Source of the DNA: Escherichia coli
GTDB taxonomy: Bacteria; Pseudomonadota; Gammaproteobacteria; Enterobacterales; Enterobacteriaceae
Direction: 5' to 3' (one strand)
Assembly (NCBI RefSeq): GCF_001677475.2
Contig: NZ_CP015229.1
DNA: 64,000 bases
Shown here piece by piece: positions 8,698 through 11,600 of this stretch. Position numbers: made by a program. The first letter of the stretch is position 1; the number at the start of each line of letters is the position of its first letter.

Positions 8698-11600
8698 TAA
8701 TTCCTTATTTCCCTGTTGCCTGCACTCAGGTAACAGGGAACTTATCATCGCAAATGATGCACCACCTGATTGCTGCTGCCGCGCCAGATCAGGGAAGGGT
8801 CTTTTAAATCCTGCACAAATTTGCCGTCGACCAGCACGTTAATCAAATCAACAACCTGCATTTGCGCAGCGTTGAGTTCGTCGAGTTTATACCCTGTCCA
8901 CACCCAGATGTCTTTACCCGGACACTCGGCGCGGATGCGTTGTACCAGTTTCAGAATATCCGGCACGTTTTGCGGATGCAGCGGATCGCCGCCGGAGAGG
9001 GAAATCCCCTGGCGTTTGATGCGAGTGTCATTCAGATCGTTAATGATCTGGTCTTCCATTGCTTTGGTAAATGGCTGACCGGAATTTACCCGCCAGGTGC
9101 TTTTGTTATAGCAACCGGGGCATTCATGAACACACCCGGAGACAAACAGGGTGCAGCGAGTGCCGGGGCCGTTGACGATGTCGACAGGATAGTACTGATG
9201 AAAGTTCATTTTCGCTTCTCAATTGACGCCATGACTGCTCTGGTGCGTACGGGCGAAGTCCCCCGATGCTACGCATTTGCCTCCTTGCGACGACAAAAAC
9301 TGGCCAGAGGCAATTCATTATGTCGGGAATCAGGAAGGGGCACGAAACGGTCCCCTCTCCCTTGAGGGAGAGGGTTAGGATGAGGGTGGAAGGATTAACC
9401 TATCTGCCCATTTCCCAAATGTTTAACGCGGCGCTTAACTTCTTCCTGCTTACCAGCGTTAAACGGACGTGCATCCGGGCTACCTAAATATCCGCACACG
9501 CGGCGAGTCACCGACACACGGGAGGCGTCATGGTTACCACATTTCGGGCAAGTGAAGCCTTTGCTGGTGCACTCGAACTCGCCAGTAAAGCCACACTCGT
9601 AGCACTCATCGATCGGCGTATTGGTGCCGTAATACGGTACATGCTGATAGCTGTAATCCCAGACATCTTCCAGCGCCTTCAGGTTGTGCTGAATGTTTGG
9701 ATACTCGCCGTAGCAAATGAAACCACCGTTCGCCAGCGGCGGGTAAGGCGCTTCAAAGTCGATCTTGTCGTACGGGTTCACCTTCTTCTCCACATCGAGG
9801 TGGAAACTGTTGGTGTAGTAACCTTTATCGGTTACGCCCGGCACCACGCCAAACTCAGCAGTATCGAGACGGCAGAAGCGGTCGCACAGGTTTTCACTTG
9901 GCGTGCTGTAGAGACTGAAACCATAACCCGTTTCTTCTTTCCACTGATCCACTGCCTGACGCAGACGTTCAACAATCGCGATACCTTTCGCGCGAAGCTG
10001 CTCGTTGTCGTAAACATGTTCGCCGCCGAACAGCGCGTTAATGGTTTCGTGGATGCCGATGTAACCCAGCGAAATAGACGCACGACCGTTTTTGAAGATT
10101 TCAGAAACGTCGTCGTCAGCATTCAGACGCACGCCACAAGCGCCTTCCATATAGAGGATCGGGGCTACGCGCGCTTTCACGCCTTCGAGACGAGCGATAC
10201 GGGTCATCAGTGCCTTACGTGCCAGCACCAGACGTTCATCCAGCAGCTTCCAGAAGGTGGCTTCATCGCCTTTTGCTTCCAGAGCAATACGCGGCAGGTT
10301 CAGGCTGATCACGCCGAGGTTGTTACGACCATCGTGGATCTGCTCGCCGTTTTCATTTTCCCACACGCCGAGGAAGCTGCGGCAGCCCATCGGGGTTTTA
10401 AACGAACCGGTGACTTTCACTACCTGATCGTAGTTCAGGATATCCGGATACATGCGCTTGCTTGCGCACTCCAGCGCCAGCTGTTTGATGTCGTAGTTCG
10501 GATCGCCTTTTTTATGGTTCAGGCCATCGCGAATCGCAAACACCAGTTTCGGGAACACCGCCGTTTTACGGTTTTTACCGAGGCCGGCGATACGGTTACG
10601 CAGGATAGATTCCTGAATCAGGCGCGACTCCCAGCTGGTGCCCAGACCAAAACCAAAGGTTACAAACGGCGTTTGACCGTTGGCGGTATGCAGGGTGTTT
10701 ACTTCGTACTCCAGCGACTGGAAGGCATCGTAGCACTCTTTGATGGTACGAGAGTTAGCGTAGCCTTCGGCGTCCGGGATGTTCCACTCTTCCGCGGTCT
10801 TGCGATGTTTGTTGTAGCTGGCGGTGACAAATGGTGCCAGCACTTCATCGATACGGTTAATGGTGGTGCCGCCATAAATATGGCTGGCAACCTGAGCAAT
10901 AATCTGCGCAGTTACAGCGGTTGCCGTAGAGATCGACTTCGGCGGTTCAATCTCGGCGTTCCCCATTTTAAAGCCCTGGGTCAGCATGCCTTTCAGGTCG
11001 ATCAACATGCAGTTGAACATCGGGAAGAACGGCGAGTAATCGAGATCGTGATAGTGAATATCGCCACGCTCATGTGCCTGCACCACGTCACGCGGCAGCA
11101 GGTGCTGGCGTGCATAGTGTTTAGCCACGATCCCGGCCAGCAGGTCGCGCTGGGTTGGAATCACCTTGCTGTCTTTGTTGGCGTTTTCGTTGAGTAACGA
11201 GGAGTTGGTCTGCTCGACCAGACCACGGATCTCCTGGTTCAGGCGACCGCGTTTTTCACGTTCAATGTCGCGATCGTGACGGTACTCGATGTAAGCACGA
11301 GCCAGTTGTTTGTATGGACCTGACATCAGCTGGTTTTCAACTGCGGTCTGGATCTCATTGATATCCACTTGGTTGCGGCCCTGCATCTGCTCGCTGACAA
11401 CCGCGGCAACAGTGGCGCAATAATCGGCATCATCGACTTCCGCTGCTTTAGCTGCACGCAGAATCGCTTCTTTGATGCGCTCTGATTTAAACGGCACTTT
11501 GCAGCCGTCTCGTTTCATCACATGCGGTGTCATGATCGCTCCATATTTTTAAGAACAGGTTATCCACAGAAATTGGGAAAGGCGTTTTCCGGTTTTTTTG

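What the first reader, a model, noticed from the sequence alone, without database searches (positions are those of the whole stretch)
9351..9390. Three copies of a GC-rich palindromic intergenic repeat distinct from REP
tcccctctccc-ttgagggagaggg-ttaggatgagggtg (9351..9390) recurs nearly identically at 33243..33278 and in inverted, more divergent form at about 58010..58045, each time in an intergenic gap between operons. This looks like a small dispersed repeat family that can form a stable hairpin and may act as a terminator or stability element.
Basis: seen in the sequence. Interest (0 to 1): 0.25.

Follow-up and report, generated by a model that had tools for sequence, protein, structure and literature searches.

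The report
Known E. coli BoxC triplex-motif repeats
The three GC-rich repeats are real, but they are ordinary members of the long-known E. coli BoxC repeat family (also called PIT or TM-ECO), whose single strands fold into a DNA triple helix in the test tube; published tests found no terminator or promoter activity.

Summary
The window, an Escherichia coli chromosome segment, holds exactly three copies: 9353-9386 (+), 33244-33276 (+) and 58010-45 (-). They are far beyond chance.

They belong to a described family: BoxC (1990s K-12 annotation, 33 copies of 51-59 bp), the same thing as the PIT elements of Hoyne and Maher (2000, 2002) and the TM-ECO motif of Holder et al. (2015).
- Copy 2 fits the published pattern CCCTCNCCC-N3-6-GGGNGAGGG-N3-GGGNGAGGG exactly.
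- Copy 1 differs from K-12 copy no. 2 by one base.
- Copy 3 is the orthologue of K-12 copy no. 23 (fimH-gntP spacer) and has decayed by substitutions.

"Distinct from REP, hairpin-forming, dispersed" is right. "Terminator" is not supported: no copy has a T-run, the literature reports no terminator activity, and copy 1 lies between nrdD and nrdG, taken from prior knowledge to be one operon. A role in mRNA stability is untested.

The published property is a stable intrastrand purine-motif triplex of the single strand in vitro, not detected in vivo, and raised variability of the surrounding spacer. My added data agree:
- The BoxC-type nrdD-nrdG spacer occurs in 408 of 5,426 complete E. coli genomes.
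- The BoxC-type pepA-holC spacer occurs in 1,404 of them.
- The compared genomes (K-12, O157, APEC O1) carry REP arrays there instead.

Verdict: already known, low interest.

The parts
9343..9390 (+). BoxC/TM-ECO copy 1, type A. Core 9353-9386: C-block 9353-9361 CCCTCTCCC, loop 9362-9365 TTGA, G-block 1 9366-9374 GGGAGAGGG, loop 9375-9377 TTA, G-block 2 9378-9386 GGATGAGGG. It lies in the nrdD-nrdG spacer, 8 nt past the nrdD stop codon.
   Evidence: E = 2.4e-10; 9/9 Watson-Crick pairs, 8/9 triplets. It differs by one base from K-12 TM-ECO no. 2 in Table 1 of PMC4666352.
33228..33281 (+). BoxC/TM-ECO copy 2, type A, intact. Core 33244-33276: C-block 33244-33252, loop TTA 33253-33255, G-block 1 33256-33264, loop TTA 33265-33267, G-block 2 33268-33276. 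The conserved left flank is GCGCTCGATCGGT. It lies in the pepA-holC spacer, 12 nt past the pepA stop codon.
   Evidence: exact match to the published TM-ECO pattern; E = 3e-13; 9/9 triplets.
58000..58062 (-). BoxC/TM-ECO copy 3, type 'A mm', decayed. The core 58010-58045 reads on the - strand CCCCCGCCCC-TCC-GGGGAGAGGG-TTA-GGGTAAGGGG. It is the orthologue of K-12 TM-ECO no. 23 in the convergent fimH-gntP spacer.
   Evidence: E = 1.9e-15; aligned with K-12; 3 substitutions in the element; 7/10 triplets against 9/10 in K-12.
57944..57995 (.). REP element directly next to copy 3. It is a different family, listed here as context rather than as part of BoxC.
   Evidence: D8, similar to 37353-37404; REP head at 57968.
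58080..58118 (+). Terminator-like hairpin with a T-run in the fimH-gntP spacer. It is separate from copy 3 and is the likely real end of the fim transcript.
   Evidence: 13-pair stem, 8 GC pairs, tail GTTCTTTTAC.

Best explanation
The three sequences are members of the E. coli BoxC repeat family, also called PIT elements or the TM-ECO triplex motif. These are non-coding dispersed intergenic repeats of about 50-60 bp. The core has three blocks: a C-rich block (CCCTCNCCC), a first G-rich block (GGGAGAGGG) and a second G-rich block (GGGTGAGGG). Shown in the literature: as an isolated single DNA strand the core folds back twice. The C-block pairs with G-block 1 as a hairpin, and G-block 2 lies antiparallel on G-block 1 through G*G:C, A*A:T and T*A:T triplets. 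This gives a very stable purine-motif intrastrand triplex (Tm 70-82 C by CD and NMR). The triplex was not seen for the duplex in vitro nor by in vivo DMS footprinting. No promoter or terminator activity was found. Inferred: the elements have no dedicated regulatory role here. They behave as amplified, structure-prone passengers of intergenic spacers. By transient folding on single-stranded DNA during replication or repair, they make their spacers unusually prone to deletion, decay and wholesale replacement. That would explain why two of the three sites in this window are minority alleles in E. coli and why the third copy is eroding. How new copies arise is unknown.
For: Identity. Copy 2 matches the published TM-ECO pattern exactly (pattern from PMC4666352). 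Copy 1 is one base from K-12 copy no. 2, and copy 3 is the fimH-gntP orthologue of K-12 no. 23. A profile of 16 K-12 copies hits the three sites at E = 1e-10 to 1e-15 and nothing else in the window. The family has a median of 18 and up to 33 places per E. coli genome, in line with 23-33 published K-12 copies of 51-59 bp.

Triplex architecture. Copies 1, 2 and 3 have 8/9, 9/9 and 7/10 canonical triplets. Across K-12 copies, G-block 2, which a hairpin does not need, is as conserved as the hairpin arms, while loop 1 varies. The commonest K-12 subtype ('A mm', 13 of 23) carries an uncompensated mismatch in the hairpin. That points to copying of a master sequence rather than selection for a hairpin.

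Instability. The BoxC-type nrdD-nrdG spacer covers at least 80% of the query in only 408 of 5,426 genomes, and the BoxC-type pepA-holC spacer in 1,404. K-12, O157 and APEC O1 carry REP/BIME arrays of different length in the same slots. Strains Eco889 and 7784 have 12 nt where the window and K-12 have about 82 nt containing copy 3. Holder et al. report the same behaviour for 56 strains.

Not a terminator: and the literature summarised.
Against: Triplex formation in living cells has not been detected: DMS footprinting was negative and the duplex form dominates in vitro (PMC4666352). The link between structure and instability is correlative. Spacers rich in any repeat, including REP, are variable, so BoxC may mark variable spacers rather than cause the variability. 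Nothing here shows how copies spread. RNA-level roles were not tested by anyone, as far as I could find. My allele counts rest on BLAST coverage classes. I inspected only three (pepA-holC) and one (nrdD-nrdG) non-BoxC genomes, so the content of the remaining spacers is not established, and I did not map alleles on a tree.
Confidence: 0.85

Rival explanations
1. RNA-level element. When transcribed, the 9-bp GC hairpin acts as a barrier to 3'-5' exonucleases or as a processing site. It would stabilise the upstream cistron (nrdD, pepA) and set the ratio to the downstream one, as REP elements do in some operons.
For: Copies 1 and 2 lie in co-oriented gene spacers with no terminator-like site. Their transcribed strand folds into hairpins of -18.9 and -17.9 kcal/mol. 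In K-12 the same two slots hold REP elements, which from established knowledge can stabilise upstream mRNA (malE-malF). In K-12 another copy sits inside the pstA-pstB spacer.
Against: There is no experimental support. Holder et al. found no orientation bias, no bias of position within operons and no functional class of neighbours. The hairpin of copy 3 is degraded (z = +1.07 and +0.95 on the two strands). The commonest subtype has a mismatched stem, and the conserved third block is unnecessary for a hairpin.
Confidence: 0.1
2. Intrinsic (Rho-independent) transcription terminator.
For: A GC-rich perfect hairpin lies directly downstream of the stop codons: 8 nt after nrdD and 12 nt after pepA.
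Against: No T/U run follows the stem on either strand at any copy. By prior knowledge nrdG is expressed from the nrdDG operon through copy 1. [quoted passage not shown]
Confidence: 0.02
3. G-quadruplex element. The G-rich strand (GGGAGAGGGTTAGGGTGAGGG, four G3 tracts with 3-nt loops) folds as a G4 in DNA, or in RNA where that strand is transcribed, in competition with the hairpin or triplex.
For: Copies 2 and 3 are the only canonical (G3+N1-7)x4 motifs in the whole 64-kb window. Holder et al. acknowledge that the sequence could in principle form a three-tetrad G4.
Against: NMR of the full oligonucleotide shows 18 imino signals, which fits a triplex and not a G4. Copy 1 has lost one G-tract (GGA) yet is otherwise intact. 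In copies 1 and 2 the mRNA carries the C-rich strand, not the G-rich one.
Confidence: 0.03

Closest known systems
BoxC / PIT element / TM-ECO (Bachellier et al. 1999 survey; Hoyne, Edwards, Viari & Maher 2000; Hoyne & Maher 2002; Holder et al. 2015, PMC4666352)
   Same: The three-block core is the same, as are the loop types (type A, TTA) and the conserved flanks (left GCGC.CGRWCGGT, right GAACAGGC). Location is intergenic and copy number per genome matches. One copy is orthologous to a listed K-12 copy (no. 23).
   Different: Nothing essential differs. Copies 1 and 2 occupy sites (nrdD-nrdG, pepA-holC) that are not among the 23 K-12 sites. Copy 1 has one mismatched triplet, and copy 3 has two extra substitutions relative to its K-12 orthologue.
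REP / BIME elements of enterobacteria
   Same: Both are short GC-rich palindromic intergenic repeats, dispersed and often found in transcribed spacers. In K-12, O157 and APEC O1, REP arrays occupy the very same nrdD-nrdG (K-12 only) and pepA-holC slots.
   Different: The sequences are unrelated: there is no GCC(G/T)GATGCG(G/A)CG head in the copies. REP has no third block. REP has a known cognate transposase family (RAYT) and known gyrase, IHF and Pol I binding; none of this is known for BoxC.
H-DNA and mirror-repeat triplex motifs of eukaryotes
   Same: Both involve purine-motif triplets (G*G:C, A*A:T, T*A:T) and both are associated with genetic instability.
   Different: H-DNA forms from a duplex mirror repeat under supercoiling. 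BoxC is a three-block single-strand fold-back. Only 2 of the K-12 copies are picked up by a mirror-repeat search.

Membership tests
BoxC / PIT / TM-ECO | Core pattern 5'-CCCTCNCCC N3-6 GGGNGAGGG N3 GGGNGAGGG-3', with one mismatched triplet tolerated (PMC4666352) | tested here: met
   Copy 2 matches exactly. Copy 1 has one mismatch, GGA for GGG in block 3. Copy 3 has two mismatches, so it passes only as a decayed copy.
BoxC / PIT / TM-ECO | The three blocks are compatible with a class II purine-motif intrastrand triplex: Watson-Crick hairpin plus an antiparallel third block | tested here: met
   Full triplets are 8/9 (copy 1), 9/9 (copy 2) and 7/10 (copy 3), against 9/9 and 9/10 for K-12 nos. 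2 and 23.
BoxC / PIT / TM-ECO | Similarity to bona fide K-12 copies over the whole 51-59-bp element, flanks included | tested here: met
   An nhmmer profile of 16 K-12 copies gives E = 1.9e-15, 3e-13 and 2.4e-10, with aligned lengths of 63, 54 and 48 nt.
BoxC / PIT / TM-ECO | Dispersed, multi-copy, intergenic in E. coli (23-33 copies in K-12) and rarely on plasmids | tested here: met
   A 60-nt query gives a median of 18 and a maximum of 33 places per genome in 5,407 of 5,426 genomes, with 62 of 86,719 places on plasmids. All three window copies are intergenic.
BoxC / PIT / TM-ECO | Orthology to a catalogued copy | tested here: met
   Copy 3 aligns base for base with K-12 4,549,848-4,549,883 (TM-ECO no. 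23) in the fimH-gntP spacer.
BoxC / PIT / TM-ECO | Physical formation of the triplex by the single strand | not testable with these tools
   Published for types A, B, A mm and B mm (CD, NMR, Tm 70-82 C). The exact variants of copies 1 and 3 have not been measured.
REP / BIME | REP consensus head GCC(G/T)GATGCG(G/A)CG with its imperfect palindrome | tested here: not met
   REP heads in the window are at 934, 6078, 6095, 19254, 37377, 57968 and 62688. None lies inside the three copies.
Intrinsic terminator | GC-rich stem-loop immediately followed by a T/U run | tested here: not met
   No terminator-like site overlaps any copy.
Canonical G-quadruplex motif | Four G3+ tracts separated by 1-7 nt | tested here: inconclusive
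   Copies 2 and 3 meet it and copy 1 does not. Published NMR favours the triplex over a G4.
Any Rfam RNA family | Score at or above the gathering threshold | tested here: not met
   The only Rfam hits in the window are Ysr276, the Mg riboswitch and a tRNA, none at the copies.

The most novel reading that the evidence does not exclude
BoxC and REP/BIME arrays may be interchangeable cassettes for the same intergenic slots. At nrdD-nrdG and pepA-holC the whole spacer is swapped between conserved gene borders. This could mean the two families are functionally equivalent intercistronic modules kept by selection. Alternatively, both could be delivered by a shared single-strand-DNA, structure-directed mechanism, in which case a still unknown RAYT-like enzyme would mobilise BoxC. 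The occurrence of the same three blocks, with different loops and flanks, at over 100 copies in a myxobacterial MAG would then reflect an ancient, widely used substrate.
Probability: 0.08. Interest if true: 0.55.

Novelty: already known. Interest (0 to 1): 0.1.

Why it matters
As a finding it matters little. The family has been annotated in E. coli K-12 since the 1990s and was studied biophysically and comparatively in 2000-2015. The value of this check is mainly corrective: these are not terminators, and one copy sits between nrdD and nrdG. The element remains one of the few abundant bacterial repeats with no known function or spreading mechanism. The allele data here could serve as natural experiments for testing whether it does anything. 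The BoxC-type spacer occurs in 7.5% of complete E. coli genomes at nrdD-nrdG and 26% at pepA-holC, and the compared genomes carry REP arrays there instead.

Tried and rejected
1. A fourth copy at 16310-16339 (I9) was rejected. It lies in the mgtA leader and Mg riboswitch and is not hit by the family profile.

2. The Rfam scan of the whole window shows nothing at the copies.

3. Terminator and promoter consensus scans at all three sites show nothing at the copies.

It therefore gave no distribution and no enterobacterial loci. I rebuilt the E. coli set from the coordinates in Table 1 of PMC4666352 instead.

5. I looked for a clean insertion footprint (target-site duplication) by comparing filled and alternative alleles. 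None was found. Two sites are whole-spacer replacements, and the third differs by a complex indel with a possible remnant (GACAATCCGAA against GACTGTCCGGG).

6. I tested whether BoxC spacers are generally REP-associated. Only 3 of 12 K-12 BoxC spacers also hold a REP head, which is too weak to claim.

7. Literature searches for later functional work on BoxC or TM-ECO found nothing beyond Holder et al. 2015.

Full report
**1. Observation**

- Copy 1: CCCTCTCCC-TTGA-GGGAGAGGG-TTA-GGATGAGGG at 9353-9386 (+).
- Copy 2: CCCTCTCCC-TTA-GGGAGAGGG-TTA-GGGTGAGGG at 33244-33276 (+).
- Copy 3, read on the minus strand: CCCCCGCCCC-TCC-GGGGAGAGGG-TTA-GGGTAAGGGG at 58010-58045.

The repeat finder pairs them (D17, I5, I16). 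No shuffle of the window gives a match to the full pattern. A suggested fourth copy at 16310-16339 (I9) is a chance partial match inside the mgtA leader and Mg2+ riboswitch.

**2. Context**

The window is an Escherichia coli chromosome segment. A 1.2-kb piece matches 5,424 of 5,426 complete E. coli genomes at 95-99% identity.
- Copy 1 lies in the 185-nt spacer between nrdD (9395-11533, -) and nrdG (8745-9209, -). By established knowledge these form the nrdDG operon, so this copy is not "between operons".
- Copy 2 lies between the pepA stop codon (33289-33291) and holC, both on the minus strand.
- Copy 3 lies between the convergent genes fimH (56954-57865, +) and gntP (58115-59458, -). It sits next to a REP element and upstream of a separate terminator-like hairpin at 58080-58118.

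**3. Identification**

The family is known. It has three names:
- BoxC, in the original K-12 annotation: 33 instances of 51-59 bp, typically 56.
- PIT, "potential intrastrand triplex" elements (Hoyne et al. 2000; Hoyne & Maher 2002).
- TM-ECO (Holder et al. 2015, PMC4666352).

Holder et al. define the pattern CCCTCNCCC-N3-6-GGGNGAGGG-N3-GGGNGAGGG and list 23 K-12 copies.
- Copy 2 fits the pattern exactly.
- Copy 1 is one base away from K-12 no. 2, CCCTCTCCCTTGAGGGAGAGGGTTAGGGTGAGGGT.
- Copy 3 is the positional orthologue of K-12 no. 23 (4,549,848-883, fimH-gntP). It carries three substitutions within the element.

I fetched 12 K-12 loci holding 16 copies, using the published coordinates. Their alignment shows that conservation extends beyond the core: left flank about GCGC.CGRWCGGT, right flank about GAACAGGC. 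A profile HMM from these copies hits the window exactly three times:
- 58000-58062 (-), E = 1.9e-15.
- 33228-33281 (+), E = 3e-13.
- 9343-9390 (+), E = 2.4e-10.

Across E. coli, a 60-nt query finds a median of 18 and up to 33 places per genome, almost never on plasmids.

**4. Anatomy and structure**

Copies 1 and 2 have a perfect 9-bp C-block:G-block-1 hairpin. As DNA it is worth about -10 kcal/mol. As RNA on the transcribed strand it is worth -18.9 and -17.9 kcal/mol.

Laying the third block antiparallel on G-block 1 gives canonical purine-motif triplets at 8/9 positions (copy 1), 9/9 (copy 2) and 7/10 (copy 3). The K-12 orthologue of copy 3 has 9/10. Copy 3 no longer folds better than shuffled sequence.

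Three features of the K-12 alignment argue against a plain hairpin under selection:
- The third block, which a hairpin does not need, is as invariant as the stem.
- Loop 1 varies.
- The most common subtype ('A mm', 13 of 23) has an uncompensated stem mismatch.

This looks like amplification of a master sequence whose three-block design matters.

**5. What is known about function**

All of the following comes from PMC4666352.
- With the complementary strand present, the duplex forms.
- In vivo DMS footprinting did not detect the triplex.
- PIT elements block DNA polymerase in vitro. They show no promoter or terminator activity and no effect on RNA polymerase, reverse transcriptase or conjugation.
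- There is no bias in orientation, in neighbouring gene function or in position within operons.
- TM-ECO loci are much more variable among 56 E. coli strains than control intergenic regions.

My scans agree with the negative terminator result: no T-run follows any copy.

| Site | State in the window | E. coli genomes covering at least 80% of the query |
|---|---|---|
| nrdD-nrdG | BoxC-type spacer | 408 of 5,426 (7.5%) |
| pepA-holC | BoxC-type spacer | 1,404 of 5,426 (26%) |
| fimH-gntP | BoxC copy present | 5,340 of 5,426, but this count includes alleles lacking the element |

- At nrdD-nrdG, the remaining genomes match only the flanking gene ends. K-12, the one I inspected, has two REP elements in that slot.
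- At pepA-holC, K-12, APEC O1 and O157 carry REP/BIME arrays of increasing length in the same slot. Homology breaks right at the pepA stop codon and about 30 nt upstream of holC.
- At fimH-gntP, the window and K-12 are filled. Strains Eco889 and 7784 have 12 nt (CGACAATCCGAA) in place of about 82 nt. This may be a remnant, because GACAATCCGAA resembles the element flank GACTGTCCGGG.
- No target-site duplication or clean insertion boundary is visible at any site.

These data fit the published picture of unstable, replaceable spacers. They do not reveal how copies arise.

**7. Mechanism**

Most likely, the three sequences are ordinary BoxC/TM-ECO elements without a dedicated regulatory role. Their single-strand fold-back (hairpin plus third strand) can form only transiently, for example on the lagging-strand template or during repair. 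This plausibly promotes slippage, deletion and error-prone repair, and so produces the observed spacer polymorphism and the erosion of copy 3.

The in vitro structure, the lack of terminator and promoter activity and the elevated variability are shown. In vivo folding and causality of the instability are inferred.

Rivals:
- An RNA hairpin that acts as an mRNA stability or processing element is possible and untested. The fact that REP occupies the same slots in K-12 makes it worth a test.
- An intrinsic terminator is essentially excluded.
- A G-quadruplex: copies 2 and 3 are the only canonical G4 motifs in the 64 kb, but NMR favours the triplex and copy 1 lacks a G-tract.

**8. Wider occurrence**

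It does show 111 exact matches to the two G-blocks in an Archangium-labelled MAG. Of these, 82 have a CCCTCNCCC block 1-10 nt upstream although the search did not require it, and they fall into two subfamilies with loop-1 lengths of 3 and 8 nt. A second, unclassified MAG has 30 matches, 29 with the C-block, embedded in a repeat of about 100 nt. The stored part of Holder's supplementary table lists Myxococcus xanthus with a single copy and no Archangium.

**9. Verdict**

The family is already known and interest is low.

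Noticed in passing
window 9210-9394 and 33156-33288, against K-12 (L002 5366-5522; L126 3282-3440): At both sites the entire intergenic spacer is an alternative allele. This strain has a BoxC-containing spacer where K-12 (and, at pepA-holC, O157 and APEC O1) has REP/BIME arrays of different length. Homology breaks at the gene borders. The BoxC-type spacers occur in 408 and 1,404 of 5,426 complete E. coli genomes.
   Followed up: yes
L006 and L035-L125 (Archangium sp. MAG JAEUJS01); L007-L034 (MAG JANYBJ01): The same three-block triplex core occurs at 111 or more copies in a myxobacterial MAG (two subfamilies, loop 1 of 3 or 8 nt). It occurs at 30 or more copies inside a roughly 100-nt AT-flanked repeat in an unclassified MAG.
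   Followed up: partly
window 24863-25202: A tandem array of an 18-nt unit (TTAAATAATTCGCAGGAG), 18.9 copies at 89% match, lies in frame inside a 638-aa ORF (24308-26224, +). It would give a hexapeptide-repeat protein. The protein was not identified.
   Followed up: partly
window 43089-43132: A perfect 21-nt inverted repeat separated by 2 nt (GTTATTCACTGATTATATTAT / ATAATATAATCAGTGAATAAC) lies about 2.8 kb beyond the tRNA gene at 40256-40337. It could be an operator or recombination site.
   Followed up: no
window 40256-40337 to about 58000, against K-12: The distance from the tRNA gene (presumably leuX, by position) to the fimH-gntP spacer is about 17.7 kb here. That would mean this strain lacks most of a roughly 35-40-kb island inserted at that tRNA in K-12 (KpLE2, from memory).
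   Followed up: no
window 34048-34242 (+): A strong Rfam hit to Ysr276 (Yersinia antisense sRNA family, 184.6 bits) lies on the strand opposite pepA.
   Followed up: no
L001 923-1445 (E. coli AST215): The closest E. coli match at the nrdDG locus carries a relB/relE toxin-antitoxin pair between cybC and nrdG. It is absent from the window, where only 44 nt separate the cybC-sized ORF (8314-8700) from nrdG (8745-9209).
   Followed up: no
window 6078-6110, 19253-19289, 37353-37404, 57944-57995, 62665-62703: These are ordinary REP/BIME elements, a separate repeat family. One of them directly abuts BoxC copy 3.
   Followed up: partly
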